A stretch of DNA of 64,000 bases from Candidatus Bathyarchaeota archaeon (GCA_963768425.1 CAVYHV010000017.1:1-64000), one strand, 5' to 3'. Numbered from the stretch's first letter, positions 5,571-36,876 are shown. The notes: generated from the sequence alone by a model not told the origin. A program made the numbers and translations.

Positions 5571-5603
5571 GCGGGTGATATCTCCACTTTGCCTTGGGTT
5601 CAA
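5571..5603 (+). repeat. att-like repeat copy (dyad arm + T-loop core, no tRNA tail)
   Basis: gcgggtgatatctccac-tttgcctt-gggttcaa. Confidence 0.85.
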
Positions 5604-5708
5604 GATTACTCGTTATCTAAATTGGACCAGGGGTTAAACTAAAACAGGATAACTTATCTTGAAACAAAAAGCTCAAATCATTATCAAAAGTTTCAAACCA
5701 AAACCGCG

Positions 5709-8700
5709 TTAAGTCTGAACATCTACCAACGAGCTTTTTTTGAGCTTCTTAGAATTAAGCAAAGCTGCAATGCAGAGTGTTGCTATAGCGAACAATGACA
5801 ACATTACTAATGAAGGAAATTCTGGAGTTTCTTGTGTTCCGAGTGCTATAACTATGGTGTGGCTACTGTGATGGTACGAAAAAGTTATCAGCCAAACATT
5901 TCCCTCCGAAATCGAGTTGTAATTGATCGATGCGCCGTCTAACATCACATTGAGTTTTGACATGTCTGGTATAAGTGATTGCGGAATACAAACTGTCGTC
6001 ACTCCTGTTGTTCCTGAAGGCCCAGAAACGCCGAAACTTAATTCATTTGTTGTTGAGTCAAACATTAAGCTTGTAAGCGTTGAATTTGAAGTTACAGAAA
6101 AGACATTTTGTTCTTGATTATTGAATGGTGCGATTGCAAAGTTTTTTATCGCATTTGAATTTGAATATGTGTTGTCGCCTGACCACGTAGCTTCAATAGC
6201 ATAATTACCTGAAACAGAAGGATTCCACACACAGGTGAAACTTCCGTTATTATCTGTGTTTACGTAAGTTAAGTCTTGCCAAGTTGCACCATTTGTGACA
6301 CTATCAGAAAGTTGTATTCCAGCATCAGAAATGCCAGCTCCATTATATGTTAATGAACCTTGGATTTGAACGTTAAATCCGGAAGTTGTCGTAGAACTTA
6401 TGCAATAGAATGATAAGTTCGGGGATGGCAGTTTTGGTGCTGGTGTAGGAGTCGGAGTAGATATTGGGGTTGGCGTGGGTGATTGTGAAGGCGTTGAGGT
6501 CGGTGCTGGTGTTGGAGTTGGCGTACTGCTGTCCGATATGGCCGAAACCGTGTTGGACCCATCATTGGCTACGAATACTTCGCCCGTGCCAGAATCATAA
6601 GCCACACTCGCAGGGGAGGTTCCACGGTTACGGTTGCAACCACGGTATTAGTGCTGTCCGATATAACTGAAACCGTGTTGGAAAGATAATTGGCTACGAA
6701 TATTTCGCCTTTGCCCGAATCATAAGCCACGCCCGCAGGGCGGTTTCCAACGGTCACGTTTGCAACCGCCGCATTAGTGCTGTCCGATATGACCGAGACC
6801 GTGTTGGACCCAGCATTGGCTACGAAGATTTCGCCCTTGCCAGAATCATAAGCTACACCCTCGGGGTCGATTCCTACGGTTACGGTTGCAACCACGGCGT
6901 TGGTGCTGTCCGATATAACCGAAACCGAGCCAGAGTTGTAATTGGCAACGAATATCTCGCCCTTGCCAGAATCATAAGCTACGCCCTCGAGGGTAGTTTC
7001 CCACGGTTACGGTTGCAACCACGGTATTAGTGCTGTCCGATATGACCGAGACCGAGTTGGAACCTTGATTGGTTACGAAGATTTCGCCCTTGCCAGAATC
7101 ATAACAAGACCCACGGGATCGGTTCCCACGTTCACGGTTGCAACCACGGTATTAGTGCTGTCCGATATGACTGAGACCGTGTCAGAATACTGATTGGCTA
7201 CGAAGTATTTCGCCTTTGCCAGAATCATAAGCTACGCTGTCGGGGTAGTTTCCTACGGTTACGGTTGCAACTACCGCATTAGTGCTGTCCGATATGACCG
7301 AGACAGAGTCGGCTCCCAGATTGGTTACGAAGATTTCGCCCTTGCCAGAATCATAAGCTACACCATAGGGAGCGGTTCCAACCGTTATCGTGGCTATTGT
7401 AGTGGGCGTAGGTATTGGGGATGGTGAAGGCGATTGAGTCGGCGCTGGCGTTGGAGTTGGGGTTGCAGTGGGTGTTGGAGTTGGTGAAGGTGTGGTCGAT
7501 TGGCCGACGAAAAAGAATGTTGTGGCTCGGCCTCCTGGGGTGCCATTGGCGGTAACGTTATACGTGCCCGGAGAGACTTGCGGAACTGAGAATTGGACAC
7601 TTCCATTTCCAGTGGCTGACATTAATGTCCCCACCCTAGTTGTGCCAAAGCCGATTATTATTGTAACATCTGTAGGAAACCCAGACAGTTCAGCCACCAC
7701 TCCTGTGCCCGCTTGACCTATGTCAGGATCCAGCGTTATGGATGGGTTGGTTTGTGTGGGCGTGGGAGTTGGCGTTGGAGTAGCGACAGGTTGAGAAGCT
7801 ATACTTACGTTATTTACTGTGTAGTTTCCACCATTCTCGGTTGCGCCAAACCCGATATACTGCAGTTGATTAAATTGTGGGGAACTCATATCTGTAGCTG
7901 AATAGCTCCAGAGCAGATTGCCATTTACATCGTAAACTAATGCTGTGACGTTATATGGGTTACTTTGGACAATTAACTTCATCGTGAACCAAACATTTTG
8001 TTGAATAATCGGCGAAGTGTATTCATTCCATATCCAGCCTCCAGCGCCATTTTGGTTATATTCAGAACTTGTCGTGTTGACCTCTCTTGCTAACAAGAAG
8101 CTACCATTGTCCCTTGAATCAAACTCAAAATTTACGCCATTAGTGGAACCCGCAAACGGCAAGTCGCTCCGCAACTCAAGTGCAAAACCATTCAAGCTCT
8201 GGGAATTAACATTTAATGAAGCGCTGAAATCTCCCTGAGGCACTGAAGTGTATAAAATATACCATTGCCCTTGGGGCTCATCAATCTGAATCGTACCGTT
8301 ATCGCTGAAAGTAGTATAAGCATTCCAATTATGTACGCCGTTAACATAAGTTCCGCTTTCAACATTCCATGTCTCTGGTGTGTTAATTGCAAAAGTTGCT
8401 GAGATTGTGGTTGCTCCTTGAATGTCTTGGACCTTATAAGAGCTAACTACTCCAATGGAAGTTCCATTAACATAAACCTCAGTTATGTGGTAACCTGTAT
8501 TCGGAGTTATAGTAAAAGTCTGACTGCTACCATAATTAACGCTTACAACTCCACTTGGGCTGATAGAGCCACCATCTCCAGCGGAAGCAATAATGTAAGT
8601 TGGGACTTCCATATTTGGGGAAGTTAAGAACGGACTAAACAAAACTTTTCCTAAGTTGTAATTGTCATAATAATCATAAAGTGTCTGACTAATTGCTTGA

Positions 8701-9620
8701 GTGTTGGTTGTTCCCCACCAGTTGAAAGTCGTATTTACGTTGTCTGGAATCCCTAAATCGCCACCCATATTAACGTTGTAACCAGTGTTTGCATAAATGT
8801 TGTTATATTCGATTGTTGCAAGTAATGGATTAGGATACCAATTTTCATTGAGCGAAATTCCAACGCTATTATTTGCTATAGTATTGTTTTCGATAATATC
8901 GCTATAATTGGGGTTTGGACCATTAACCCAAATTTCAATTCCATTTGTGTTATTAATTATTAGATTTCCTTCAATCAGATTATATGCAATTGAGTTTTCT
9001 ACAGGAACGCTAGCATCAATTCCCGCCCCTGAGCAATCTGAAATTATATTGTTTAAAATGTCTGCATTTGCCGTGCCTTCCCAGTTTAGAGTGACCCCTT
9101 GACCTGTTATCGTGTTGTTAGAGATGGTTGGTTCACCGATAGCTACTTCCAATTGGTTGCCAATACTAATCCCGCCCGTAATAGTATTGTTGTTTATCAT
9201 AGTTGAATCTTCAAGGGATAAGGCGGAACTAACGATTGCGTTTTGAATTATGCACCCTGTACCAGTGGATTCAGCCCAATTAGTGCTGTATGGCGTAAAA
9301 TCTATTTCCCCAGAATTAAGGGTGATTATGCTGGAACTATTTCCGATTGCTTGTAACGTACCATTTACTGTTAAAGAGTAGCTGCTAAGATTCACGGTAA
9401 CCCCTGCTTCAATCCTCAAGGTTACTCCATTACTTACAAGAACATTTCCCGTTAATGTGTACGGACTGTTTGCTTGCACCCATGTAGTGTTTGAAGTGAT
9501 TATGCCTTCGCTGATGTTTGTGCCGTTTTGAGCCGTGCCAAAATGCACAGTAGTAACTCCAACCATTGAGGATACTAAGAGTGCAAAGATGATTGTTAGT
9601 GCTAATGCTGTTCTTTTCAT
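5709..9620 (-). CDS. Large cell-surface protein: signal peptide, beta-helix/NosD-like region, PT linkers, YVTN beta-propeller, PEF-type C-terminal anchor (split by frameshifts into ORFs 7182-9620, 6569-6895, 5709-6605)
   Basis: Repeated VAYDSGKGEIFVAN...NTVSVISDSTN; C-terminal TPEFPS + TM helix + basic tail. Confidence 0.8.
6520..7390 (-). repeat. About 7 tandem ~126-bp repeats encoding YVTN propeller blades
   Basis: tgctgtccgata recurs at about 6527, 6652, 6778, 6904, 7031, 7156, 7283. Confidence 0.9.
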
Positions 9621-9876
9621 GAGGCACCAATTAATAAAATGTTTAACTTCCCCTTACGTTTTGTGTTCTCAGGTCATTTCTACGCAATGCAGATTTAAAA
9701 TTTCGCACTTATTACATAATGAAAAAATCAGCGCTAAAAATTGTGGTAACTTTTTTTAAAAGTATGATGGGGTTTTGGTACGACTGGAAGAGCATACCAA
9801 TCAATGAGCATACACGCAAGAATTGCCCTAATCAAGCTTACTTCTCCCTGAGAGTGTAATTCCATACCAAGCTCAA

Positions 9877-10001
9877 TCATGAAAACCTGTGGCCGCATTC
9901 ACGGCAAATGTAGCGCTGCGTTTCTCCTGACGAGTGTATCTTATCCCATCTTTGCAGCTTCTTTCACTGCGACATGCAGGGCAGTTGAAGACTTTCTCCA
10001 A
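9877..10001 (-). pseudogene. Small InsA-like zinc-ribbon ORF (one frameshift); resembles the N-terminal Zn ribbon of IS1-type/archaeal integrase proteins
   Basis: MEKVFNCPACRSERSCKDGIRYTR then shifted frame TQRYICRECGHRFS*. Confidence 0.6.
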
Positions 10002-10063
10002 TTCGTTTGCATCCTTCCAACTTTTTATTCCAATTATGCGTCTCAAGGAAAAAAGAGGGTTTT

Positions 10064-10186
10064 GCGGGTGATATCTCCATTTTCGCTTGGGTTCAAATCC
10101 CCCCCAGTCCAAAAGGCAGTCCGAACCCAAGAAAGTGCTAATCACATCTAGCACTTTTGGGTTCAAATCACATAGAGACTCAAACC
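10064..10186 (+). repeat. att-like repeat, long form (arm + core + tRNA-Ala 3' end + hairpin + second core + catagaga tail)
   Basis: gcgggtgatatctccat-tttcgctt-gggttcaaatcccccccagtcca...gaacccaagaaagtgcta/tagcacttttgggttc-aaatcacatagagact. Confidence 0.9.
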
Positions 10187-11324: not shown

Positions 11325-11382
11325 AACGATTAATAATAACTTAAAAAGGTTTAAATATTTATAGGTAGGTCGTGGGGAAAGT

Positions 11383-12585: not shown

Positions 12586-12622
12586 GGTTTGAACCCGCTA
12601 CGGTTCCGAATCCCGACCGTCT
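12586..12622 (+). repeat. Short inverted-core/forward-core site related to the att repeats
   Basis: ggtttgaacccgctacggttccgaatcccgaccgtc; similar to 17322-17356. Confidence 0.6.
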
Positions 12623-12696
12623 ATTTCTGACTTAGAACTGCCTGTTGTGGCTTGTTTTTCGAGTGCTTTTCTTGGAAGTTGATATTCAATGCAATC

Positions 12697-12780
12697 GCGA
12701 GTGACATCTCCACGGGAAGGGGGTTCAGATCTCATAGAGATTTAATCCAGATTGAGTTCAAATCACTTCCTTGGCGCACT
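12697..12780 (+). repeat. Chimeric att-like repeat (arm + core + catagaga tail + second core + tRNA-Ser-like 3' end)
   Basis: gcgagtgacatctccac-gggaagg-gggttcagatctcatagagatttaatcc...gagttcaaatcacttccttggcgca. Confidence 0.8.
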
Positions 12781-12855: not shown

Positions 12856-13047
12856 TGAGGCTCTGGGAACTAAAGGAAGAAAATTTCTTTTCTTTAGGAG
12901 AATAAAAGAAAATGCAACCTTTTCAATTGCAGCTATTTTGAATGTAACCAAAGCCTTCTCAGCACCCATTCTTTCCATCTCTTGCCATTTTTTCATGGTT
13001 TTAAAGGACTAAAAAAAGGGAAAAGGATTGTGTTTAGCATTTTTAGC
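12856..13047. repeat. ~190-bp conserved non-coding segment downstream of PQQ-propeller genes (copies at about 19288-19425 and 38004-38189), including a U-rich terminator on the minus strand
   Basis: Shared gctctgg(g/a)aacta...ctttaggagaa...tcaattgcagctatttt...ggactaaaaaaaggg. Confidence 0.8.
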
Positions 13048-15300
13048 TTATGGATGTTTTCTTGTGACGAGGACCGCGAGCACTGCGCCGATAATGGTGA
13101 TGACGATAATGACAGCGACGATTCCGTATTCGAGGGTTGTGTTTGAGGCTAAGCCAGTGAGCGGTGTTGCTGTCGGTGATGCTGTTGCTCCGGGCGAGCT
13201 TGCGTAGAAAGCTGTTTGAGCAGAAGAGCCATAATACGCTTGCGTACCTGCGAATGTGGCGGTAAGAGTGTAGTTGCCAGAGATGTCAGGCTTCCATACG
13301 AAGCTATACAATCCACTGGCGTCGGTTGTGGTTTTGCCGATTACTCTGTTGTTGTCGTTAGAGTCCAAGACGGATATTGTGACTGGTACTCCGGTTGTGT
13401 TGGTTAGCATTGGCTGCTGCATGTAGACGGCCTCCATGAACTGTGACATGCTTGCGTCGGAAACGCATGGTAAGCCGTTGGGGAAGTTAGCTGCAACTGC
13501 TGCTTGTGATGCGCCTGCGGAGATGTCGGTGACTGCGCCCGTTATCGTTACTGGTGTGTCAGTTGTCACACCCAAGTCGGGAGCCGTGATTGTGGTTTTG
13601 CTGGGTCCCATGCCATAAGCGTATAGCTGGTTGTCATACATGTTTGGAACTACGAGGATGCCATCTGAAACGGGCATTGTTAATTGAATGTTAAAGTTGC
13701 TTATGTCCCAGATTAGGCTTCCAGTGGTAGCGTTTATACAGTAAAGTAGACAGTCTCTAAACAAAGGATCCCCGTGAGATACACCAGTTGACGCATAGAC
13801 TTTGCCGTCAGCGATCGTCATGCTTGTTGTTTCGAATGGTGCTGTGTTGAATCCAGGGACATTGGTTCCGGTGTTTGTTCCGTCAAACCTCCATAGAACC
13901 TGACCAGTCGTAAGGTTGTACGCAGAAACTCCGTCTGTTTCTAAGCCATATAGGATCCCGTTAGCGATTGACGATTCCTTGAAAGATGCTTCTGAACCCC
14001 ACGGGTTAGGATCTGGTGCAGATGTCCATAGCTTCTGACCGGTAGCGGTGCTAAAGGCGTACCATTCCTCTGCGTATGCGTCGTAAGTGGTGTAAACTCC
14101 GTTGGCCATTGGTCCCATAGACCATTCATAGGAATTTGAGGGGGAGGGATATGTGCGGTTTTGGACCCATAGTTGCTGACCTGTTGTCGCATCATAAGCT
14201 ATATCCAATTGAGAGCTTGCTGCAGCGCTTTCGCTGCTTCCATCTGTCACAAGTACTATACCTGAATTGGATTCAACTACCATCTGACCTGGATAGTTTG
14301 GTGTCGTAACGTTCCATTGTATGCCTGTAGCAAAGTTAAGCGTCGCTCCCACGGGAGGATAAAATTGCCAAATGTTTCCAGTGATTGCGGTAGAAGCCTT
14401 CTGGATGCATAGAGATGAGTTCCACATTGCGAGCCAATTATTGCCTATGACGTAATCTAGTAACTCACCGTTAGGACCCTCAACTGTTGGATCACTAAAC
14501 GGGTTACCTGAAAGAGCTGCAGGTGGCACGTTTGCAATTTTCAGTATCTGGTTACCTGTGTTAGCGTCGTACATAGTCCATGTAGTTCCAGTAGTCGACC
14601 ATAAGTATGGAAGGCCTCCTTCTTGGTTTGGCGTTAAATAGTTGTAGATTTGACCGAGTGAGATTGCCGTCCCAAATTCTGCTATACCGGCACCGGGGAG
14701 TAGTCCGGCTACGAGGGGTCCAGTAGCGTTTTGGAACCATAGGGTCTGTCCTGTGCGTAAATCCACGGCGTAGAATCCTTCGTATGGAGATGCAGGCGCA
14801 TTGTAGTAAAGTACTCCGTTGATGATTACGGGCGGTGAAAACTCGCTTTGATATGACTTTCCAGTGTAGTAGTTGCTTGTATCGGTGCCTCCGAATTCGC
14901 CTCCGATTAAGCCTCCATCCTGTAACGGCTTAGTCCAAAGTATATGTGGACTGTTAGGAGCAGTAGTGTATGCATTAAAGTTTCCAGTTCCATTGTAATT
15001 GGTCGCTTGAAACCCGTTAAGCCCTTGAGCCAGCCAATTTCCTGAAATCGTGTACCATAGTTGATTTTGAGCATTTATTGGTGTAGTCCAGTAATTTGTC
15101 GGTAGTGGAGTTTGAGAAAGTGTTGACGCTGGTGGTGTTTGCACTGTGAGTATTGTGCTATAACTGCTTGCTGAATAAAACCAATCAATAAATGATGCGG
15201 TGGTGATATCGTATCCTTCTAGTTGCTGGCCTGGAAAACTGAACTTCAGCGTGTAATTTCCGGTTTGAGTAGGCGTGTAAGTTGTGACTGCAAACGCTGC
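13048..15300 (-). pseudogene. PQQ-like beta-propeller surface protein, 5'-truncated (no signal peptide)
   Basis: Paralogous to 38190-40823; homologous frame continues upstream of the ORF to about 15300 (YTPTQTGNYTLKFSFPGQ) and then ends; C-terminal TM ending RKHP. Confidence 0.75.
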
Positions 15301-15635: not shown

Positions 15636-15679
15636 GGGTTCAAATCCATAGAGATTTAATCAAGTTTGGAATTCAAATC
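15636..15679 (+). repeat. Core + catagaga-tail site
   Basis: gggttcaaatccatagagatttaatc...ttcaaatc, matches 12721-12764. Confidence 0.75.
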
Positions 15680-17321: not shown

Positions 17322-17356
17322 GGTCTGAACCCTACGGTTCTAATCTCCCTCAGTCC
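17322..17356 (+). repeat. Inverted core + core + tRNA-Ala-like tail
   Basis: ggtctgaaccctacggttctaatctccctcagtcc; tail matches 29509-29528. Confidence 0.7.
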
Positions 17357-18093: not shown

Positions 18094-18159
18094 TGATGGT
18101 AGTACAGGCGTAGTACTTTAAGCTTCTGCAAAACGGAGAATCGCGAATTCTGCTGCTAT

Positions 18160-18210
18160 GAACACTTGACTTGTACTCAAGAGGTCAGATGTTCAAATCC
18201 CCCCAGTCCA
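18160..18210 (+). pseudogene. Degenerate 3' two-thirds of a tRNA-Ala-like gene
   Basis: Anticodon arm cttga-cttgtac-tcaag, variable loop aggtc, T-loop ttcaaat, tail ccccccagtcca; no 5' half. Confidence 0.7.
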
Positions 18211-18258: not shown

Positions 18259-18287
18259 GGGTTCGAATCTCTTCTCAGGCGCCAACT
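18259..18287 (+). repeat. tRNA-Ser-like 3' fragment (direct repeat with 19208-19230)
   Basis: gggttcgaatctcttctcaggcgccaact vs gaatcccttcccaggcgccaact. Confidence 0.75.
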
Positions 18288-19202: not shown

Positions 19203-19207
19203 GAAGA

Positions 19208-24927: not shown

Positions 24928-25119
24928 AAAGTAAAGACGTCCTTACGAACTTGAACTTTCAACGGATAATACTTGCAACCGTCAGAATAGCCTTTGTTAG
25001 TAAAGGCTCATATGAGAGCTTGAAGAACAATTTTATGCCCGAAACTCGGAAAAGACTCTACACCTCAACTAGCTATCCCCCTTAGAAGTTCCACACTTGA
25101 TTTCTAAAAAGAGGAAAAT

Positions 25120-25166
25120 GTGGTGATATCTCCACTTTCGGAGGGGTTCAAATCCCCCCAATCCAC
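25120..25166 (+). repeat. att-like repeat
   Basis: gtggtgatatctccac-tttcggag-gggttcaaatccccccaatccac. Confidence 0.9.
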
Positions 25167-25209
25167 TAAGATCTTTTAAATTACCCGAGATTTGTCGCGC
25201 ATTAAATCG

Positions 25210-26238: not shown

Positions 26239-26375
26239 TTTGACTAACCTCTTTAGTCACGTTAGAAATGCTTCAAGAGTATACAACAAGACTTGTTTTA
26301 TAACCTTTATCAAAACGGATACAATTCGCGTTCCGCACCTTTTCGAGGTGTTCTCTCAACAGAAAAAAAGGGAAT

Positions 26376-26496
26376 GCGGGTGACATCTCCACTTTGGTTG
26401 GGGTTCAAATCCCCCCCAGTCCATAATGCAGTCTGAACCCGAGAGAGTGCAAATCACAATAACACGTTTGGGTTCAAATCCGATAGAGACTTGACC
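26376..26496 (+). repeat. att-like repeat, long form (homologous to 10064-10186)
   Basis: gcgggtgacatctccac-tttggttg-gggttcaaatcccccccagtcca-taatgcagtctgaaccc...gggttcaaatccgatagagact. Confidence 0.9.
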
Positions 26497-26930
26497 GTTT
26501 ATTGCACGAAAACTTTTGGATTCGACCTTGATTTTCATATCTAAACCCATTCAACAAATGCTTTTTATCTACGGATAGTCTAAAGCATAAATTCTCTTTT
26601 TAAAGTACACGAAGAACTTCTTTTTTACAAGGGACAAGAAAGTGTGTTTACACTGTTCTATTCTGTAATCTGCCCCCTTTTTGTGTCTTAATATGTTAAC
26701 TGAATGGTTATCCCAGTCGAGGAAATCCAACTGCGAAGAAATTTTTAGAAGCACATGTAGAATATTGCAAAAAAGTTAGTCGATGGCTCTAGCAGATTCA
26801 ACTGTTTTTCTTGAGAGTAACGAGGGGCGGGCGCGATCGATAGAATTTAAAAGGCCCCTCAGATTTTGGATTCTAAACCAAGTGGTCTACTTAAGTTCCG
26901 AGCCAGATTGCGCGCAAGCTCCAATTTCCT

Positions 26931-29308: not shown

Positions 29309-29404
29309 GAGTTAGGAATTGGAAATGAAATAACTATAAGTGTTGTGAATTTCGAAACATGGATTATAAACCTTACTCAGACTAATGAAATGAGTCAGCC
29401 TGGT

Positions 29405-29530
29405 TGTCCGCGCGAAGTTCAAAAAAGCAGAACAGTCAAACGAGATTGCTTTAAAACTTGAGCAAACGGTAAAAAAGGAAGTGTGGGTGATATCTCCACT
29501 TTCAGAAGGGTTCAAATCTCCCTCAGTCAC
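29405..29530 (+). repeat. att-like repeat with ~80-bp extended left arm (direct repeat of 36751-36876)
   Basis: tgtccgcgcgaag...aaaaagcagaacagtcaaacgagattgct...gtgggtgatatctccac-tttcagaa-gggttcaaatctccctcagtc. Confidence 0.9.
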
Positions 29531-29838
29531 GATACATCCTTTTCACTGATTCCCGGAACTCTTGAAAGCAAGCAGTTTATTTCCGTTTTTTGAAGATTCT
29601 TCAAATTGGTTTTTCTTGTGGTTCAAATCAAGGAAATATAGTTGAGCAAGCACGGCGTCGCGAGATATATTGGCTTATTTTGGAAAAGCGATTGGGAGTA
29701 ATTAAGTGATTGATTGTAACTGCTCCAAATTGATTGCCATGCTGCAGAAGCTGTGCCTCAGCCTTCATCCAAGACTTCCAATGCCACCTCAACAATCTTA
29801 AGGCTGGTTTATTAGGGCGTTGAATACTCTTTTTTTGT

Positions 29839-30474
29839 TTGAGGCGTTGCCTTCAATTGACTGCGAAGGTCTCGTCTGCTTTTAGAAGAGAACGCATAGA
29901 GGCATTAGCCGATGGCATATTCGCCACGGTCATGACGATTCTGGTGCTCAGTTTGGTTGTGCCAACCGTGATCGGAATGAACAGCGTGGCAACTCTGCAA
30001 GCTGACCTCTCTAAGCTCTTGCCCGACTTGTTCGCGTATGTCATAACCTTCATTTTTCTGGGTTTCCTGTGGATTGGTCATCAGAGCAGTCTGAGCCACA
30101 TAACGAAGTTCGACCTTAGGATTCTGTGGTTGAACATTCTTCTTCTTATGGGCGTGGGGCTTATTCCGTTTACAACGGCTCTGCTGGGCAGGTATCCGCT
30201 GCAGCCCATCGCGGATGTCTTTTACGGAATTAATGGAGTGGGCGTCACCCTTGTCTATAATGTTCTCTGGTTTGATTCTCGAAGCCGCCACATGACGCAT
30301 GAAGAACCCGACCAGACTGTGAAACTTTATCGAAACAGAATCCTTCTGGTTGGACCAGTGGTTTACTCTTTAGCCACAATATTCGCTTATGTATCACCAT
30401 ATATTAGCCTGGCGTTGTATGCTTCGGTCACGGTGTTCTACATCGGATTCGGCGGAAGGTACGCGCATAATTAA
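29839..30474 (+). CDS. TMEM175-family potassium channel
   Basis: RIEALADGIFATVMTILVL signature; WIGH; LIPFTT. Confidence 0.9.
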   Translation: MRRCLQLTAKVSSAFRRERIEALADGIFATVMTILVLSLVVPTVIGMNSVATLQADLSKLLPDLFAYVITFIFLGFLWIGHQSSLSHITKFDLRILWLNILLLMGVGLIPFTTALLGRYPLQPIADVFYGINGVGVTLVYNVLWFDSRSRHMTHEEPDQTVKLYRNRILLVGPVVYSLATIFAYVSPYISLALYASVTVFYIGFGGRYAHN

Positions 30475-30641
30475 CCGCGAATGGCGGTGGAAACATTGAT
30501 TTTTCAACTTTTCAAGCTGAAGCATTTGCCCCTGCCCTCGATTTGATCGACAGTGCACTCGTTCGGGTTCTTGTCAGGCCTTAGGCAGTGGAACCTTGGG
30601 CATTCTTAGCCGGCAATCCTCGGTCACAACTTGATAGCGCG

Positions 30642-31752
30642 CCAGTTTGTTGCTAAATTTTAGAAGTTGACATTTGTCTGCTAAATTAATTTATATTTAG
30701 GCGCATTTGTAGGCTGTTATGGAGAAGACTGAGAGTTCTTGCTCCATTTTGCGTAGTTTGAACTTAGATGACATAGAGGAGGTTGTGTCTGAAGCTTACC
30801 ATCAGGAAGGCGCAGGTAGGCCACCGAGAAAACCGATTGGCATTTTCAAAGCGTTGATTATGAAGAGAGTTAAGCAGATTCCAAGCGACAGAGAATTGTA
30901 TCGGCGATTATGGTATGATCAAGATCTGCGAGAGGTCTGCGACATTGAGGCTGAACAGAAGCCATATCATCCCACGCAGATAACAAGGTTTAGGAATCGC
31001 ATCGGAGTTACAAGACTCGAAAGAATAATGGGCGGCTTAGTCGATGAACTGCTCAAACGCGGGTTGATAATTGGCAAGATTGTAGTGATGGATGCTACTT
31101 TCATCAAAGCATACAGTAAACGTGATCCTCATGAAAACAGCCGCGGAGGCTCAGACCCCCCGGCTAGAGTAGGCAGGAACGGCAAACCCTACGAGCTCGG
31201 ATACAAGCTACACATTGCAATAGACGCGAAATCTGAACTCCCTTTGGCAGTCATTGTGGCATCGGCCAATGATAATGAGAAGAAGCATGCTCCTGTGCTG
31301 CTTGAAAAGACTTTGAAGGCAACCAAACGCATTGTGAAACTGGTTGTTGCAGATTCTCAGTATTCTAGCAGAAACCTCAGAGACCAGGCTTCCTCCCTTG
31401 GCATTAGAGTCGTGATTCCATTTCCTACAAATCAGCAGCGAGCGCAGAAAGGACTGTTGAGAGTGGACCGGTATTTCAGAACTCATGGACCGACTAGCGA
31501 GAAACGGCTTTACAGGTTGAGGTCTTCGGTTGAGCGGGTTAATTCTAGGCTCAAAGAGCAGCTGTGTTTGGAGAAACATCGGGTCAGGAGTATAGAAAGG
31601 ATCACTGTTCATGCTTTAATCTGCATGATTGCTATGCTATTCAATGCAGTCGCTGCATTTCGGTTGAACAGAGTAGAAAAAGTTCGGTCAATAACCTTAC
31701 TCGCAAGATGAGCAAAAACTAACACGGAAAAAGTAAATTAGCAACGCACTGG
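30642..31752 (+). mobile_element. IS element (IS5/IS1182-like DDE)
   Basis: Imperfect TIRs ccagtttgttgctaaattt / aaattagcaacgcactgg enclosing a transposase. Confidence 0.85.
30719..31711 (+). CDS. DDE transposase
   Basis: GRPP, MDATFI, GYKLH, ADSQY, YRLRSSVERVNSRLK. Confidence 0.95.
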   Translation: MEKTESSCSILRSLNLDDIEEVVSEAYHQEGAGRPPRKPIGIFKALIMKRVKQIPSDRELYRRLWYDQDLREVCDIEAEQKPYHPTQITRFRNRIGVTRLERIMGGLVDELLKRGLIIGKIVVMDATFIKAYSKRDPHENSRGGSDPPARVGRNGKPYELGYKLHIAIDAKSELPLAVIVASANDNEKKHAPVLLEKTLKATKRIVKLVVADSQYSSRNLRDQASSLGIRVVIPFPTNQQRAQKGLLRVDRYFRTHGPTSEKRLYRLRSSVERVNSRLKEQLCLEKHRVRSIERITVHALICMIAMLFNAVAAFRLNRVEKVRSITLLAR

Positions 31753-31760
31753 CCAGTGCG

Positions 31761-32246
31761 TTATATCAATTTTGGGGTAGATCTAATCGTTGTTCGTGCT
31801 AAACTTACTATACGACTTCCCAGTGAGACTAAGAAAAATCCAAGGAAAGCAAACTCAACAAAACTAAATATTGCTTGTCCCGGAAAAATCAACGTTAAAA
31901 CTATACCTATGTAAAGCGCGCTTCCAGCGTATTTTCCTACAGGATCGTATACTCTTTTGGCGTAGAGACTTGTTACTAAGAATTGAACAAACAAGGCACT
32001 TATGAGGATCAAGAGCCAAATTGGGTAGTATCCTTTGACGCTGAAAATTACAAATATACCAAACACAAGAACAAAGTCTGTTGTGGCATCATAGTAGCCG
32101 CCAAGTCTTGAGGTTACCTTTAATCTCCTTGCCAAATAACCGTCAAAAAAGTCAGTCGCAGCTGAAAAAGCAAGTAAAATTAAGCATAAGGTAACGTTTC
32201 CTGCCATAAACGAATAAAAGAATAAAGGGAAAACTACGATTCGCAA
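31761..32246 (-). CDS. CDP-alcohol phosphatidyltransferase (N-terminus extends to about 32290)
   Basis: IPNLISSLR upstream; TDFFDGYLARR...GGYYDATTD motif. Confidence 0.9.
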   Translation of the reverse strand: MRIVVFPLFFYSFMAGNVTLCLILLAFSAATDFFDGYLARRLKVTSRLGGYYDATTDFVLVFGIFVIFSVKGYYPIWLLILISALFVQFLVTSLYAKRVYDPVGKYAGSALYIGIVLTLIFPGQAIFSFVEFAFLGFFLVSLGSRIVSLARTTIRSTPKLI

Positions 32247-32393
32247 CGAACTTATGAGATTCGGAATTAGGATTAGTTTTCGTATAGTCCATCACTTTAT
32301 CAAGATTATGCATTCGCCAGCTTCATCTTGGTTAATTCATCTCTAAAATGGATTTGCAAATTCAACAGCAAGCTTGCTACAAAAAAAGGAATT

Positions 32394-32440
32394 CGGGAGA
32401 AATCTCCACTGGGACGTCGGTTCAAATCCCCCCAGTCCAC
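32394..32440 (+). repeat. att-like repeat (diverged arm)
   Basis: cgggagaaatctccac-tgggacgt-cggttcaaatccccccagtccac. Confidence 0.85.
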
Positions 32441-32865
32441 TTCAACATCGCTGCCACAGCACCCGAGAATTCCGAGGAGTTGGAGAGTATTGCGTTTTCA
32501 GAAAAATCTATTCTCCCAAAAGTCTCACATTCTATGTATATCCGAAGCTTGAGCTCAGATGCTACTGTAACCTGAGGATTTCTGACTTAGAAATGTCTCT
32601 ATTGGGTCCAATTCGCTTTCTTCACTTTATTGATTTTAGTGGGAGATTTTTCGTGCCTGCGGCATCCATCCTTCACGCCGCTTTACTTCTGAAATATATA
32701 GCTCTTCCCAGTACTTGCCCATAACGTAGAACCTGTTTTCCATGTAGCTCGATTCTTCTTTCGAATCTTCACAAGCGTTTACGACAATATGTCCCAATTG
32801 TTCTTGCTTATTCATTTTTTCCATGTTGTTTTTCATCATCATAACTACATACACCACACACATAG

Positions 32866-33160
32866 TTATATACCTTTAGGGAAGTAAAATATAGTAAACC
32901 CAACCTCTCCCTTAACCTTCCTCAGACCCTTCAAAAGCAAGTAACCCTGATTGAACGCCTGCTTAATAGTTCCAAACGGATGCTCAACTATCTGCCGCCT
33001 CAAACGAAGCTTCTCTATGCCATTACGACTCTGCAACCTAACTCTGAGATGCTCAACTGCGCCATCATACTCAGACCTAACCATAGTCCTTCCACGTTTG
33101 TTCCTCGTACACTTGCTCCTAAAAGTGCACACAGCACGACCAACCGTTCTGTAAACCCTT
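32866..33160 (-). pseudogene. IS1182-family transposase C-terminal remnant
   Basis: C..C..RSKCT...RRQIVEHPFGTIK...LKGLRKVKGE. Confidence 0.8.
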
Positions 33161-33380
33161 AAACTCCAATTACAAGTGCACAAGCAGCAACAACCTTTTT
33201 TGAAAGCCAATTAAAATCGTCTTCTTGCTTGCAAACATTGTCTTTCACACATTTTTTGCATGCAAGGCAAGGGCGAATATTGAGGTCACTTAATTTAACG
33301 AAATCATAACTCAGCCCAGTTGCTTCCAGAACGGCTTTTAACTGCCCTGTCAGTATTGCTATTAGTAAGGGGACTTCCTG
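33159..33380 (-). pseudogene. Iron-sulfur flavoprotein/flavodoxin fragment
   Basis: IRPCLACKKCVKDNVCKQEDDF; truncated at the IS remnant. Confidence 0.7.
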
Positions 33381-33461
33381 AAATGCCGATAACCTTTGAC
33401 TCCATATAATCAATTACCGAAACAAGAAAAAAGTGTTTGAGAGTTTTGTAAACGTTTGCAT

Positions 33462-33863
33462 CTATGCTAGTTTTTTGCTTCCTTGTCCTGGCGAAGCAGC
33501 GAAGACTTCAGTGACTTTTATTATTCCAACACTTTTTATTTTCATTTTCGAGGTTTCCATACTCTTCTTTGCGAAGTTATCGAAAATTGGTCCACTTGTT
33601 TGGAAACCACCGAATGTTCCCTTTAGTTGGTAGCCTGTCATTGGTCCTTTGAACACTGCAATAGCAACTTGCTTGTTTTTTTCAAGGTTTTCTTTTGTTT
33701 TTATGATGAAAACTTCTGCGAACGCAATAGTTTCGGGGTCTACTGCTACAAAGCTCCATAATGGAACTACGTTTGGAATGCCTTTAACGTCTATAGTTGC
33801 TATCATTTTCGCTGAATCACTTGCACTTAAAACATCCATTACTTCTTTAGGTATACTAACCAA
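33462..33863 (-). CDS. Pyridoxamine 5'-phosphate oxidase-like FMN-binding protein
   Basis: IATIDVKGIPNVVP...KTKENLEKN...GYQLKG...SPG. Confidence 0.85.
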   Translation of the reverse strand: MVSIPKEVMDVLSASDSAKMIATIDVKGIPNVVPLWSFVAVDPETIAFAEVFIIKTKENLEKNKQVAIAVFKGPMTGYQLKGTFGGFQTSGPIFDNFAKKSMETSKMKIKSVGIIKVTEVFAASPGQGSKKLA

Positions 33864-34091
33864 AAATCACACATCCTATTAATGGAAACAAAACTGCAAA
33901 ACTCTAATAAACTTTTAGGGAATTAGAATATACTCAGCAAATGCAAGGGAAGTACAATATATTGGCTAACACAGGCAAGGATTCATCATCCGATTACCTA
34001 ATCGGTGCAATCGCTGAGTTAAATCAGTGAGGGCGAAGTGAAGTGAAACGAAATATAGAAGGAGTTACGACCAACTTTTGGGGGATTTGTA

Positions 34092-34592
34092 TTATAATTT
34101 AAGCAAAGTGCCTAAGACATGAATGATTAAAATGAGGTAGAATGCAGTAGTCATGGTGATATGTAAGTATTTTAGGTACTTTTTTGAGCTCTGCATTATA
34201 TTAAATCTGTAAAGAACGCCTGTCACAACAAGTGCAAGCAAAGCGATGTATAATGCCATTCCGATTCCTATGCGAGTTACAGTTGCTAGCTCATACCAGA
34301 AATGAACAGAAATAAGCATGAAAGCCAATAAATTACCGAAAATATGAAATCTTAATAATGCTTTAACTCGCAGTGGACGACGCTGTTTTATGACATAATA
34401 TATTGGCGTAACCAATGCAATCCATAAGCCCCCTATCCAACTCGCCCAATGGTTAAAGGATAAAAAACCTATTGAAAAATCAAACAAATGCGTATAAAAC
34501 AATGCAATAGTTGACAGAAAAATGGTCAGCACAATTATGACTAATGCCACCCAAAAATCGGGTTTTCTTAAATAGTTAAAAACACTCGCCAA
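34092..34592 (-). CDS. Membrane protein with His-bearing TM helices (cytochrome b/ferric-reductase-like)
   Basis: Five hydrophobic segments; FHIFG, SVHF, LHIT, IHV. Confidence 0.6.
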   Translation of the reverse strand: MASVFNYLRKPDFWVALVIIVLTIFLSTIALFYTHLFDFSIGFLSFNHWASWIGGLWIALVTPIYYVIKQRRPLRVKALLRFHIFGNLLAFMLISVHFWYELATVTRIGIGMALYIALLALVVTGVLYRFNIMQSSKKYLKYLHITMTTAFYLILIIHVLGTLLKL

Positions 34593-34602
34593 CTTTGCTC
34601 TT

Positions 34603-34745
34603 TACTCCAAGAAAACTGAGTCTACTGCTACTATGCTCCATATTGGAACTACGTTTGGAGTGCCTTTAGCGTCTACTGTTGCCAACATTTTTGCTGAATC
34701 ACTTGCACTTATAACATCAATTACTTCTTTAGGTATGCTGACCAT
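34603..34745 (-). pseudogene. 5' fragment of a second pyridoxamine-oxidase-like gene
   Basis: MVSIPKEVIDVISASDSAKMLATVDAKGTPNVVPIW, nearly identical to the N-terminus of 33462-33863. Confidence 0.8.
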
Positions 34746-34830
34746 TTTTCATCATCATAATTACATCAAACCACCCATATAGTTATATACATTTAGGGAA
34801 GTAGAATATACACAGCAGAGATGCGAGAAA

Positions 34831-35595
34831 ATGGTAACTGTAACCCAAAACGAGGAGTCTATGATCAACTTATTGAATAACCTCAGGCAAGAGGTAAAGA
34901 GCTTAAGAAATGACGTGAATCTAATCGAGGAATCAGTCTTAAAGCAACGCCTAAAGGCAATCGAAGAAACCCTATCCCAAAATCACCTAATGGTCTACGC
35001 TCAGCAAAGATCTGAAAACATTAACGAAGACCTTTCACGCAGCCTCAAACCAGATTGCGATGATAAAACGAAATGCTTGGAATATTTTCAAGCAAAAATT
35101 GATGACAGCACCCGAGCAATTAAAGAATCAGGGTCAAAAAAAGCAATATCCGATATTGATGACAAAATTGCCGAGAACGAGTTAATGCTTGAAAAAACCA
35201 GAGGTCAAAAATGTGAAGCTTGCTTTGCGAACTTCCACAAGAAGCTAAAACGTGAAAAGAGAGCCTACCAAGAAATCGTTCTAGTAGAGGACATGAATAA
35301 ACCCGAGAGCGCTGAGGCGTTAGATATTCAGTTTCTCGTGAACGCGTTGTTTGAACCGCTCGCAAATTGTTCGCGCCTTAAAATTCTCTCGTCAGTTAGT
35401 GAAGGGAAAAAAAGTTTCTCTGAATTGTCTAAAATTGTAAATCTTAAGGGAGGTCACTTGGCGTTTCATCTTAAGAAACTTGTGGATGCAAGACTGATAG
35501 CACAGGAAGCATCCAAAGGAGATTATGTTGCTACTCAAAGGGGGCTTAGTTTCATTAAGAAAATGAGTTCTTTTACAAGCCTTGTCACAGTATAA
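34831..35595 (+). CDS. ArsR-type winged-HTH regulator with Cys-containing N-terminal domain
   Basis: PLANCSRLKIL...FSELS...GGHLAFHLKKL...GDY. Confidence 0.85.
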   Translation: MVTVTQNEESMINLLNNLRQEVKSLRNDVNLIEESVLKQRLKAIEETLSQNHLMVYAQQRSENINEDLSRSLKPDCDDKTKCLEYFQAKIDDSTRAIKESGSKKAISDIDDKIAENELMLEKTRGQKCEACFANFHKKLKREKRAYQEIVLVEDMNKPESAEALDIQFLVNALFEPLANCSRLKILSSVSEGKKSFSELSKIVNLKGGHLAFHLKKLVDARLIAQEASKGDYVATQRGLSFIKKMSSFTSLVTV

Positions 35596-35700
35596 TTGGT
35601 CTCGCGCGCGCAAAAATTAGTGGATTAGAACCTGCTCATGTATGCAACCCGATGGACTTGCCACGTCTTAAAATTGGAGAAGAATAAAATCTTCAAGTGT

Positions 35701-35802
35701 GGGCGTGCGCGATTGGGCAAACGGGATAAGGTTAGGATCAACGTCTCTACTGACAAAATGAGCAGAAATTAACATGAAAACTTCAATTAAGCAACGCACT
35801 GG
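35701..35802 (+). mobile_element. Orphan right end of a related IS (transposase 3' tail + TIR)
   Basis: ...aatgagcagaaattaaca...aattaagcaacgcactgg aligns with 31680-31752. Confidence 0.75.
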
Positions 35803-35938
35803 CGCGCCCAGTCCACTTTATTCACCATTATCAGCAAAATGCCGAGGCATGGTGAAGCACGTTTTAGCAAATTTACTGATTTGGGATTCACAAGTCATAA
35901 TAGTATAACGGGCTCGATGCTGATAAGGTGGCTGTTTA

Positions 35939-36727
35939 ATGGGTCAAGTTGCGTTATCCTTTGTAGTCCCAGCTTATAATGAAGAAGACTTTATCGAGGA
36001 TACTCTCGGTACAATTGAAACCGTCATAAAAGGCAAGAATTTGCCTTACGAAATTGTTGTCGTTGACGATGGTAGCCTTGATGGAACTTTGGCTAAAGTG
36101 ACTAAATACGCAAAAAATAACGGTCATGTCAAAGTGGTTAGTTACACCAAAAACATCGGAAAGGGGCACGCCGTAAAAACAGGGTTCATGCAAACTAGCG
36201 GGGACATAGTTATTTTTGCAGACAGTGACATGGAGATTGATTTAGGTACCGTCTCAAAATACATTCAGGCTTTGGAAGACGGGGATATTGTCATAGCTTC
36301 TAAACGGCATTCGGGTTCACAAGTGGAAGCACCCTTATCTCGTAAGATTCTTAGCCTTTGCTTTAACGGCTTAGTTCGGCTTCTAACAGGCGTTCCTCTT
36401 AATGATACTCAGTCAGGGCTTAAAGCAATGAAGAAGAATGCGTTCGTCGATATTTTCCCTCGATTAACTGTTAAACGTTACGCTTTTGACGCTGAATTAT
36501 TGGCTGTGTCACATCTTAGTGGCTTGAAAGTTGTGGAGATGCCCGTCAACATGAAGTTGAATGCGTCATTTAAGCCAAAAGAAATATGGAACATGTTTAT
36601 TGATTTGCTTGGAATAGCGTACAGGCTTAGAATTATTCACTGGTATCAGCGCCTGTTCCCCAAGAAAAACGGCTTCCTAAACCCGGTTTCACTTCTCCTT
36701 CGTGAAAGAGAATTAATGGTTATTTAA
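35939..36727 (+). CDS. Glycosyltransferase family 2 (dolichol-phosphate glycosyltransferase-like)
   Basis: VPAYNE, VDDGS, GKG, DSD, DTQSGLK. Confidence 0.9.
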   Translation: MGQVALSFVVPAYNEEDFIEDTLGTIETVIKGKNLPYEIVVVDDGSLDGTLAKVTKYAKNNGHVKVVSYTKNIGKGHAVKTGFMQTSGDIVIFADSDMEIDLGTVSKYIQALEDGDIVIASKRHSGSQVEAPLSRKILSLCFNGLVRLLTGVPLNDTQSGLKAMKKNAFVDIFPRLTVKRYAFDAELLAVSHLSGLKVVEMPVNMKLNASFKPKEIWNMFIDLLGIAYRLRIIHWYQRLFPKKNGFLNPVSLLLRERELMVI

Positions 36728-36750
36728 GTATTGAAATCTAAAAGATCAAA

Positions 36751-36876
36751 TGTCCGCGCGAAGACTAAAAAAGCAGAACAGTCAAAACGAGATTGCTTCA
36801 AAACTTGAGCAAGCGGCAAAAAAGAGGAAGTGTGGGATACCTCCACTTTTCAAAGGGGTTCAAATCCAGTCCACCA
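36751..36876 (+). repeat. att-like repeat with extended arm; last copy in the window
   Basis: tgtccgcgcgaag...gtgggatacctccac-ttttcaaag-gggttcaaatccagtccacca. Confidence 0.85.

What the first reader, a model, noticed from the sequence alone, without database searches (positions are those of the whole stretch)
5571..36876. Integron-like cassette array punctuated by co-oriented tRNA-derived att-like sites
Seen: nine + strand intergenic copies of a composite site at 5571, 10064, 12697, 23116, 25120, 26376, 29483, 32394 and about 36830. Each has a poly-A/G lead-in in most copies, a dyad GCGGGTGATATCTCCAC, a sequence-variable spacer of nearly fixed length (8 nt in seven copies, 7 and 9 in the others) and GGGTTCAAATC; seven continue into a CCCCCCAGTCCA(CCA)-like tail. 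Partial sites lie at 12586, 15636, 17322, 18160, 18259, 19208 and 35807. All are intergenic and in one orientation, and they split the region into units of about 1-4.5 kb: YVTN adhesin | TGT-like + TA | truncated PQQ gene | HTH + membrane | AbrB-PIN | UPF0175-PIN | PQQ + TrmB | PEF surface protein | pfkA | His kinase | TMEM175 + IS + CDP-alcohol transferase | redox genes | GT2 | VapBC. Established: tyrosine integrases often cross over in the 7-nt T-loop of tRNA genes and leave 3' tRNA fragments at attR. CCAGTCC-A-CCA has U70 and A73, the tRNA-Ala identity. Inference: a dozen integrase-less units far smaller than proviruses or ICEs accreted at one locus, suggesting a gene-capture/shuffling platform analogous to an integron but using tRNA-mimicking sites instead of attC. 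I do not recognise a described archaeal system with this design.
Basis: partly seen in the sequence, partly recalled or inferred. Interest (0 to 1): 0.92.

Follow-up and report, generated by a model that had tools for sequence, protein, structure and literature searches.

The report
tRNA-Ala integration hotspot with cargo units
The repeated sites are scars left each time a mobile element inserted into one tRNA-Ala gene of a Bathyarchaeia archaeon, so this stretch is a stacked island of small captured gene modules, which is a known way of building genomic islands but is seen here in an undescribed archaeal form.

Summary
Nine co-oriented composite sites lie at the stated places. Each has an A-run plus GGGG, then GCGGGTGAYATCTCCAC, a spacer of about 8 nt, and GGGTTCAAATC; seven continue into a tRNA-like tail.

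The tail is the 3' end of tRNA-Ala(TGC). Relatives G001, G003, G016, G008 and G013 carry the intact gene at the head of homologous arrays. G008 shows the empty site, with tRNA-Ala directly followed by the VapBC module that in this window follows the ninth site.

The conserved left part is an element-borne arm. The same arm is joined to at least 40 different tRNA tails in relatives and metagenomes. Left and right flanks assort independently, so the site is a recombination junction of attR type.

The recombinase family is probably a Zn-ribbon tyrosine integrase. A full-length copy sits next to tRNA-Ala in G013. Two vestiges lie in the window, at 9880-10003 and 29577-29597.

My reading is serial integration at the tRNA T-loop followed by integrase loss, as in tycheposon-like islands. 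It is not an integron: there is no adjacent integrase or attI, no attC-like fold, and gene orientation is mixed. Whether the integrase-less units still move with an integrase supplied in trans remains open, at about 0.25. I rate it a new variant of a known kind, of moderate interest.

The parts
5555..5621 (+). Composite site 1: arm plus T-loop-like core, tRNA tail lost
   Evidence: nhmmer E 1.5e-12; sequence
9880..10003 (-). Frameshifted Zn-ribbon N-terminal vestige of the integrase family. Its ATG lies about 42 nt from the T-run of site 2.
   Evidence: tblastn to integrase residues 46-60 and 69-81; translation CPACRS...CRECGHRFS; family HMM E 0.0076, which is weak
10045..10114 (+). Composite site 2: arm plus T-loop plus tRNA-Ala tail CCCCCCCAGTCCA
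10159..10185 (+). Second T-loop-like core followed by ACATAGAGACT. The same module lies at 12721-12742, 15636-15656 and 26470-26491.
12682..12746 (+). Composite site 3: arm plus T-loop plus CATAGAGATT module in place of a tRNA tail
18157..18210 (+). Decayed partial copy of tRNA-Ala(TGC), D arm to 3' end, anticodon mutated to TGT. It is an att scar of a second, longer type.
   Evidence: sequence, compared with the intact tRNA-Ala of relatives; tblastx match to the tRNA-Ala region of G003 and G001
18259..18284 (+). 3' fragment resembling a tRNA-Ser end. With 19206-19227 it brackets the UPF0175-PIN module.
   Evidence: similar fragments next to tRNA-Ser on contig C24
23098..23166 (+). Composite site 4
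25103..25169 (+). Composite site 5
26359..26426 (+). Composite site 6
29465..29533 (+). Composite site 7
29577..29597 (-). Vestige of the last seven codons plus stop of the integrase (RIFKKRK*), 58 nt right of the core of site 7, in the expected orientation
   Evidence: The motif [LIVM]F[RK]K[RK]K* has 5 hits in six frames of the whole genome. The other 4 lie in integrase genes or fragments.
32375..32441 (+). Composite site 8. Its right flank CTTCAACATCGC matches the sequence that follows tRNA-Ala next to the full-length integrase in G013.
35804..35816 (+). Tail-only tRNA-Ala fragment at the left edge of the single-gene GT2 unit
36812..36878 (+). Composite site 9, the one furthest from where the tRNA gene should lie. 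It abuts the ancestral flank.
36830..37582 (+). VapBC module. It is the neighbour of intact tRNA-Ala(TGC) in G008, the empty-site state.
48970..64000 (.). Conserved core block, syntenic with G001, G003, G016 and G013. It marks the right limit of the variable island.
   Evidence: tblastx

Best explanation
The stretch from the contig start to about 49 kb is a genomic island anchored on the tRNA-Ala(TGC) gene of a Bathyarchaeia archaeon. The gene itself lies beyond the contig start or is missing from the assembly.

Inferred mechanism: elements with a tyrosine integrase of a Zn-ribbon-bearing family recombine their attP with the T-loop region of the tRNA gene. Each insertion rebuilds the tRNA at the left junction. 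It pushes earlier insertions to the right. It leaves an attR-type junction at the element's right end, made of the element's own arm followed by the displaced tRNA 3' end. The arm is the A-run, GGGG, GCGGGTGAYATCTCCAC and about 8 nt.

Nine such junctions, all co-oriented, therefore punctuate the island. The integrase genes were later lost almost completely, leaving cargo modules of 1.2-10 kb: TA pairs, pfkA, a kinase with its regulator, GT2, surface proteins and an IS.

Shown: the sites, their tRNA-Ala origin, the empty site in a relative, breakpoints at the sites, and integrase vestiges. Inferred: crossover in the T-loop, the arm as a protein-binding site, and the order of events.
For: 1. tRNA-Ala origin. 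Intact tRNA-Ala(TGC) lies at the head, on the same strand, of the homologous arrays in G001, G003 and G016. Its 3' end equals the tails in the window.

2. Island limits. Conserved genes resume 3.6 kb (G001) or about 11.6 kb (G003, G016) after the tRNA. In G000 they resume at about 48.97 kb.

3. Empty site. In G008 the tRNA-Ala is directly followed by the VapBC homologue. Homology of 9 relatives with the window starts at 36818-36911, in or just after site 9.

4. The arm travels with the left flank and the tail with the target. The GT2 gene keeps a composite site downstream in G044:C29, but with another tail. In G003, tRNA-Cys is followed by an integrase C-terminal fragment, a panE-like gene, and an arm joined to a tRNA-Cys-like tail.

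5. Flanks assort independently.
- Among 95 copies, 5 pairs share the left flank, 7 share the right flank and 0 share both.
- Among 79 metagenome copies the counts are 6, 11 and 4. The 4 pairs that share both flanks are near-identical on both; I read them as the same locus sampled twice.

6. Many tRNA targets. The 82 exact sites from 80 metagenome loci carry at least 40 different tails.

7. Integrase link.
- G013:C26 has tRNA-Ala(TGC) converging on a full-length integrase of the family, with main-type sites downstream.
- Of the 15 integrase-family matches in the metagenome loci, 14 are C-terminal remnants on the strand opposite to the site; the fifteenth is a weak N-terminal match on the same strand.
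- Remnants lie just to the right of sites at G000:C14:291159, G002:C3, G018:C173 and G030:C27.
- In L176, tRNA-Ala is followed by the C-terminal half of an integrase and then the arm.

8. Vestiges in the window at 9880-10003 and 29577-29597.

9. Position relative to tRNA genes. In the complete genome G003, 8 of 16 sites have a co-oriented tRNA gene within 25 kb upstream. My own arithmetic from 41 tRNAs in 2.35 Mb gives about 3.5 expected.
Against: - No intact tRNA-Ala(TGC) and no integrase are in the window or at the contig start, so the head of this array is not seen.
- No catalytic-domain remnant is found in any of the nine units, although the 65-nt sites are very well kept. Simple decay should erode both.
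- Full-length integrases seen next to tRNAs (G000:C14, G016:C9, G013:C26) have a different arm of GGCGAT..ATCGCC type at their attR. None of the 82 exact metagenome sites has a full-length integrase in its unit. The cognate enzyme of the main-type arm is therefore not pinned down.
- Presence of the integrase family does not track presence of sites: 24 of 30 genomes with sites against 8 of 11 without.
- Site strength shows no gradient along the array.
- Some tails do not match the nearest upstream tRNA: L160, G003:1532213 and G003:2096877.
Confidence: 0.65

Rival explanations
1. Active cassette platform, working like an integron or like pdif modules. The arm plus T-loop is a maintained recombination site carried by integrase-less cargo units. 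An integrase encoded elsewhere in the genome excises, inserts and reshuffles these units among tRNA loci.
For: - Sites are near-perfect while integrases are absent from all nine units.
- Integrases are also absent from the tRNA-Ala arrays of G001, G003 and G016.
Integrase remnants are found in only 6 of 42 units with 1.5 kb or more of left flank.
- Single-gene units recur with the arm at other targets. GT2 is about 0.9 kb between the tail fragment at 35804-35816 and site 9. VapBC follows tRNA-Ala in G008 and tRNA-Arg(TCT) in G044.
- Flanks reassort at the site.
Against: - Integrase vestiges at unit ends and truncated integrases in equivalent units show descent from autonomous elements.
- No identical cassette was found in two contexts. 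The best unit matches are 83-89% nt identical.
- pfkA homologues in 14 of 60 other genus genomes are 65-69% identical. The 5 fetched are not flanked by full sites.
- No circle or deletion junction appears in the contigs laid.
Confidence: 0.25
2. The composite site is a small RNA gene or an RNA processing or termination signal with a tRNA-like 3' part, for example a split-tRNA 3' half. It would then not be a recombination scar.
For: - It is a conserved 65-nt unit found across an order.
- It has T-arm-like and acceptor-like sequence.
- The complementary strand ends in a T-run.
Against: - RNAalifold finds only 7 pairs, -1.18 kcal/mol, with one compensatory case.
- No Rfam family matches the sites at gathering score; below it, only two weak tmRNA-model matches (E 0.056 and 0.75) overlap sites 4 and 5.
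- The T-stem 5' strand does not pair in most copies.
- Tails differ with the neighbouring tRNA, and flanks reassort at the site.
- Orientation is unrelated to the neighbouring genes.
Confidence: 0.04
3. A MITE-like miniature repeat of about 65-150 nt that spreads by transposition and merely resembles tRNA ends.
For: It is dispersed on both strands in the complete genome G003, with 18 hits at E <= 0.01. There are many copies in metagenomes.
Against: - Copies share only the arm and T-loop.
- Tails match the co-oriented upstream tRNA in the Ala, Cys and Leu cases.
- Integrase remnants lie beside the sites.
- I saw no terminal inverted repeats or target duplications by eye and did not test for them formally.
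Confidence: 0.04

Closest known systems
Tycheposons and the tRNA-anchored genomic islands of Prochlorococcus (Hackl et al., bioRxiv 10.1101/2020.12.28.424599; passages read)
   Same: - Tyrosine-recombinase elements integrate at tRNA genes.
- Later arrivals push earlier ones into the island.
- Partial tRNAs and fragmented integrases are scattered through a hypervariable island.
- Cargo is small and adaptive.
   Different: - The host here is an archaeon.
- The integrase has an N-terminal Zn ribbon.
- A conserved 30-nt arm abuts the core and is joined to at least 40 tRNA tails, against seven target tRNAs there.
- No replication module is seen in the units.
- Most units lack any integrase.
- Relatedness of the integrases was not tested.
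Archaeal integrated elements in tandem at a re-used att site (Krupovic et al. 2019, PMC6563490, passages; review PMC8371274, passages)
   Same: - tRNA genes are the targets and the att sites are direct repeats.
- Arrays form by re-use of the site.
- Integrase loss after integration is noted.
   Different: - Those cases are a few large proviruses, plasmids or casposons.
- Here there are nine units of 1.2-10 kb in one array.
- An arm motif is shared across an order of Bathyarchaeia.
- The review's text has no occurrence of 'Bathyarchaeota' or 'T-loop'.
Integrons, including those reported in Archaea (recalled from memory; not read here)
   Same: Co-oriented recombination sites separate small cargo units, including TA modules. 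Content varies between relatives.
   Different: - There is no intI, attI or Pc platform.
- The sites are tRNA-derived duplex att junctions, not folded attC sites.
- Genes point both ways.
- The units carry integrase vestiges.
Integrase-less elements that use a recombinase in trans: IMEX at dif, pdif modules, CIMEs (recalled from memory; IMEs appear only in a search listing, PMC5704250)
   Same: These would apply if the rival reading holds: small modules bounded by recombination sites and moved by an enzyme encoded elsewhere.
   Different: Mobilisation in trans is not shown here. The sites derive from the tRNA T-loop, not from dif.

Membership tests
Integron | intI gene with attI and promoter next to the array | tested here: not met
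   PF00589 matches in G000 lie on contigs C30, C14, C28, C8 and C3, with none on contig C17, which holds the window. None lies next to the tRNA-Ala arrays of G001, G003 and G016. The 5' end of the array in G000 is cut by the contig start.
Integron | attC sites: imperfect inverted repeats that fold as single strands | tested here: not met
   The consensus fold of the nine copies is -1.18 kcal/mol with 7 pairs. The sequence is a tRNA 3' part plus a short dyad.
Integron | Cassettes mostly promoterless and co-oriented | tested here: not met
   Genes in the units lie on both strands.
tRNA-targeting tyrosine-integrase island (as defined for Islander; abstract of PMC4383910 seen in a search listing) | Intact tRNA gene at one end | tested here: inconclusive
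   Met in G001, G003, G016, G008, G013 and metagenome loci L176, L212 and L225. Not found in the G000 assembly, which is 91% complete.
tRNA-targeting tyrosine-integrase island | Displaced 3' fragment of the same tRNA as a direct repeat at the far end | tested here: met
   Seven of nine sites carry the tRNA-Ala tail.
tRNA-targeting tyrosine-integrase island | Tyrosine integrase gene beside the tRNA | tested here: inconclusive
   Full-length in G013:C26 and at G000:C14 beside tRNA-Leu(TAA). Only two short vestiges lie in the window.
tRNA-targeting tyrosine-integrase island | Unoccupied site in a relative | tested here: met
   G008:C19 has tRNA-Ala(TGC) directly followed by VapBC.
SSV-type (suicidal) integrase elements | attP inside the integrase reading frame, so that integration splits the gene | tested here: not met
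   The integrase frames at G000:C14 (436 aa) and G013:C26 are whole and end about 60-80 nt from the tRNA. The site at 10045 lies upstream of the vestigial start codon.
Tycheposon | Integrase of the tycheposon clade and a replication module (primase or helicase) | not tested
   No phylogeny was made. No such genes were seen in the Pfam scans of 30 ORFs of the window.

The most novel reading that the evidence does not exclude
The arm-plus-T-loop composite is a maintained, attC-like site of an order-wide Bathyarchaeia cassette-exchange system. In this reading, integrase-less single-gene to few-gene units are excised, inserted and swapped among many tRNA loci by Zn-ribbon tyrosine integrases supplied in trans. 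tRNA genes would then serve as distributed gene-capture platforms.
Probability: 0.25. Interest if true: 0.8.

Novelty: new variant of a known kind. Interest (0 to 1): 0.5.

Why it matters
Bathyarchaeia are abundant and uncultured, and how they gain accessory genes is little known. My full-text searches found no description of tRNA-anchored arrays or of this arm motif in them. The main text of PMC11697101 mentions genomic islands only in general terms; its supplements, which describe the other islands, could not be seen.

The finding gives three usable things:
- a sequence signature (arm plus T-loop) that marks integration junctions across an order;
- a candidate integrase family;
- clean comparators, namely an empty site and the same cargo at different tRNAs.

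The signature can be used to map accessory gene flow in metagenomes. The comparators allow a test of whether small cargo units move without their own integrase.

Tried and rejected
- RNA reading. There are no tRNA or Rfam matches at gathering score in the window; at E up to 10 only weak chance-level matches appear. The consensus fold is weak. Rejected.

- Split-tRNA 3' half. No complementary 5'-half trailers were found. The reverse-strand hits of the dyad are few: 2 of 14 with up to 2 mismatches. Rejected.

- ORB-like origin boxes. I considered these from a recalled consensus because some C14-type copies read CCACTGGA. I dropped the idea: the main copies lack it, and the layout is wrong for an origin. 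Not tested further.

- SSV-type split integrase. Rejected.

- C28 integrase as partner. This 453-aa protein lies beside a tRNA-Ala-like tail and an inverted, diverged dyad. Apart from itself it has only distant matches (22-31% identity), in 11 of the 40 relatives searched. Not pursued.

- Conserved gene beside the sites. tblastx of 700-nt flanks of 25 sites (16 in G000, 9 in relatives) found none, apart from paralogous surface-protein genes.

- Left flank of tRNA-Ala in relatives. It maps to no clear place in G000.

- pfkA unit. The homologues are distant and lack full sites.

- PQQ+TrmB block (window 19558-22974). It is 71-80% identical in 7 genomes. In G003 it lies at 1.45 Mb, away from any site listed.

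- Sequencing runs. The 20 holders each held 0.20 or less of the sampled words. Logan contigs of X1, X2, X3 and X5 gave only short, low-depth pieces. The two joints that touch sites (26371 to 23118; 23154 to 38001) are single contigs with short sides. I do not count them as evidence either way.

- Viral contigs. There were 0 exact matches to the arm-plus-T-loop pattern.

Full report
**1. The observation**

The window is the first 64 kb of contig C17 of a 2.96-Mb, 33-contig genome.

- GGGTTCAAATC with up to 1 mismatch occurs 15 times, against 1.57 expected. Fourteen of the 15 are on the + strand.
- A profile of the nine copies, run over the whole genome, returns them as the nine best hits (E 1e-18 to 6e-10).
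- Weaker relatives lie on C14 (three, co-oriented), C6 and C2.
- ARAGORN and Rfam find no tRNA in the window.
- The nine copies have no convincing common fold.

**2. What the tail is**

No tRNA in the assembly has this 3' end. A sequence-only model of the site (R1) finds it in 30 of 41 genomes searched, G000 included. That is 18 of 24 other genomes of the genus, and at least one genome in 9 of 11 other families of the order.

In G001, G003 and G016 an intact tRNA-Ala(TGC) lies at the head of a co-oriented series of sites. It ends in GGGGGTTCAAATCCCCCCCAGTCCA, or ...CGGTCCA in G003, which is the tail seen in the window. Its acceptor stem has G3:U70.

Window 18157-18210 is a decayed longer copy of the same tRNA.

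**3. The island and the empty site**

Genes from about 48.97 kb onward are syntenic with G001, G003, G016 and G013. The stretch between tRNA-Ala and this block is 3.6 kb in G001 and about 11.6 kb in G003 and G016. In G000 it is at least 49 kb and shares almost nothing but the sites.

The VapBC pair that follows site 9 in the window follows the intact tRNA-Ala(TGC) directly in G008. G008 has no composite site at E <= 0.001. In nine relatives, homology to the window begins at 36818-36911, in or just after the site. This is the classical picture of insertion into the 3' part of a tRNA gene, with the displaced fragment left beside the old flank.

**4. What the conserved left part is**

Across 95 copies from G000 and relatives, the following are conserved: the A-run plus GGGG, GCGGGTGAYATCTCCAC, and GGGTTCAAATC. 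The roughly 8-nt spacer and the tail vary. The tails are recognisable 3' ends of several different tRNAs (Ala, Cys, Leu, Arg and others).

Identity with the tRNA starts about at the T-loop. The 5' strand of the T-stem is usually not complementary. Where an upstream co-oriented tRNA is near, the tail resembles it:

- Ala in three genomes;
- Cys at G003:476806/478440 and Leu at G003:1846665/1841123.

Other tails do not match the nearest tRNA.

The GT2 gene (35922-36707) recurs at 83-86% nt identity in three genomes. In G044:C29 it again has the arm downstream, joined to a different tail.

I then compared flanks between copies:

| Set | Pairs sharing left flank | Pairs sharing right flank | Pairs sharing both |
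|---|---|---|---|
| 95 copies (G000 and relatives) | 5 | 7 | 0 |
| 79 metagenome copies | 6 | 11 | 4 |

The 4 pairs that share both flanks are near-identical on both; I take them to be the same locus seen twice.

The site is therefore a junction at which left and right sequences have been joined repeatedly. It is an attR-type product: element arm, then crossover region, then target tail. Crossover in the 7-nt T-loop is inferred from where tRNA identity begins, and from what I recall of established work on tRNA-targeting integrases.

**5. The recombinase**

G000 has seven PF00589 matches, none in the window. The protein at C14:260427-261734 has an N-terminal CxxC...CxxC ribbon and converges on an intron-bearing tRNA-Leu(TAA). 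Its family is named from Bathyarchaeota and Bathyarchaeia in public records and occurs in 32 of 41 genomes searched. Most matches are C-terminal fragments. Several fragments lie 40-90 nt to the right of composite sites, on the opposite strand:

- G000:C14:291159;
- G002:C3:79503-80021;
- G018:C173:29547-30083;
- G030:C27:26430-26669.

In G013:C26 a full-length copy converges on tRNA-Ala(TGC), with main-type sites further down the same array.

Eighty were fetched, holding 82 sites with at least 40 different tails. In these loci:

- of the 15 integrase-family matches, 14 are C-terminal remnants on the opposite strand, and the fifteenth is a weak N-terminal match on the same strand;
- remnants are found in 6 of 42 units with at least 1.5 kb to the left;
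- remnants are found beside 3 of 73 right flanks;
- none is full-length.

L176 shows tRNA-Ala, then the C-terminal half of an integrase, then the arm, within 1 kb.

The window holds two vestiges. The first is a frameshifted Zn-ribbon start just left of site 2, at 9880-10003 (weak on its own). The second is the last seven codons, RIFKKRK*, 58 nt right of the core of site 7. That end motif occurs only five times in all six frames of the genome, and the other four are in integrase genes or fragments.

**6. What speaks against a simple story**

- The full-length integrases beside tRNAs have another arm type at their far junction: GGCGAT..ATCGCC, at a similar distance from the T-loop. The enzyme for the main-type arm is therefore inferred, not shown.
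- Presence of the family does not correlate with presence of sites (24 of 30 against 8 of 11).
- The sites are far better kept than the integrases. No catalytic-domain remnant lies in any of the nine units.
- This leaves room for the rival reading that integrase-less units with a kept arm are still moved in trans.
- I found no identical unit in two places and no solid junction in public contigs. That reading therefore stays untested rather than supported.

**7. Comparison with what is known**

Re-use of one att site giving arrays of integrated elements is stated for archaea and bacteria in passages of PMC6563490 and PMC8371274.

The closest described system is the tycheposon islands of Prochlorococcus. 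There, integration at tRNA genes, pushing of older elements into the island, partial tRNAs and fragmented integrases are all described (passages).

The present case works the same way but differs in four respects:

- the host is an archaeon, in Bathyarchaeia;
- the integrase has a Zn-ribbon N-terminus;
- one conserved arm abuts the core and is joined to very many tRNA tails;
- small integrase-less units dominate.

It fails the defining features of an integron (see the membership test). My searches for a description in Bathyarchaeia found none. The supplements of PMC11697101, which describe further islands, were closed.

**8. Verdict**

It overreaches in calling the design integron-like and undescribed.

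- Best reading: a tRNA-Ala(TGC) integration hotspot built by serial insertion and integrase loss (0.65).
- Main rival: cassettes still mobilised in trans (0.25).
- Novelty: a new variant of a known kind. Interest: 0.5.

Noticed in passing
window 33421-34023 (PNPOx-like gene 33462-33863); 41-nt repeats at 32853, 33892 and 34770: A 600-nt block is 88-95% nt identical in 8 of 60 other genomes of the genus. This is well above the 65-80% nt identity of most other matches of this island in the same searches. Direct 41-nt repeats bracket modules of about 0.9-1.0 kb. It may be another small mobile module inside the island.
   Followed up: no
relatives G008, G044:C26, G070:C12, G009:C127, G069:C241 (loci L116-L121, L134): The 0.75-kb VapBC module is itself bracketed by tRNA-derived repeats: a tRNA on the left and a partial tRNA-Ala copy (anticodon arm to 3' end) on the right. 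In G044 it sits after tRNA-Arg(TCT), with a hybrid right repeat made of an Ala arm and an Arg-like tail. This suggests a second att type and movement between tRNA loci.
   Followed up: partly
window 12586-12596 and 17322-17332; G000:C28:17465-17504; G003 locus L011: A second recurrent arm-like module, G(C/T)GGTYYGAACCC, then 3-5 nt, then GGTTCNAATC, precedes tRNA-Ala-like tails or the CATAGAGAYT module. It may belong to another element family.
   Followed up: no
G000:C28:17483-19163: A tRNA-Ala-like tail is followed by an inverted, diverged copy of the dyad and a converging 453-aa tyrosine recombinase with a coiled-coil-like C-terminus. Apart from itself, the protein has only distant matches (22-31% identity), in 11 of the 40 relatives searched.
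   Followed up: partly
G000:C30:68-77 kb and G000:C24:3.4-6.5 kb: Further co-oriented series of 3' tRNA fragments lie downstream of tRNA-Leu(TAG) and tRNA-Ser(CGA). Stacked insertions at tRNA genes are therefore common in this genome.
   Followed up: no
G000:C14:260200-260345: A tRNA-Leu(TAA) with an insert in the D-arm region is missed by ARAGORN and only partly matched by the Rfam tRNA model (positions 10-63, 22.8 bits). ARAGORN calls only 34 tRNAs and Rfam lists 38 matches (34 above its cut-off), so several intron-bearing tRNAs are probably undetected.
   Followed up: partly
window 322-2140: A restriction-modification pair (N6_N4 DNA methylase and an EcoRII-C-like nuclease), with a UDG-family gene at 2615-3229, lies in the unit cut by the contig start.
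   Followed up: no
window 13040-15178, 19418-21576, 38182-40823: Three paralogous PQQ/beta-propeller surface-protein genes share 63-75% identical segments, including their downstream regions (repeat families D3, D6, D10, D17). This points to local duplication within the island.
   Followed up: no
window 30637-31753: An IS with a DDE_Tnp_1 transposase is 72-89% identical to copies in several genus genomes. It reaches a summed contig depth of 468 in run X3.
   Followed up: no
G003:C1:563400-565148 (locus L145): A full-length integrase of the same family lies beside sequence that looks to me like the 3' end of a 23S rRNA gene rather than a tRNA. That judgement is by eye and was not tested.
   Followed up: no
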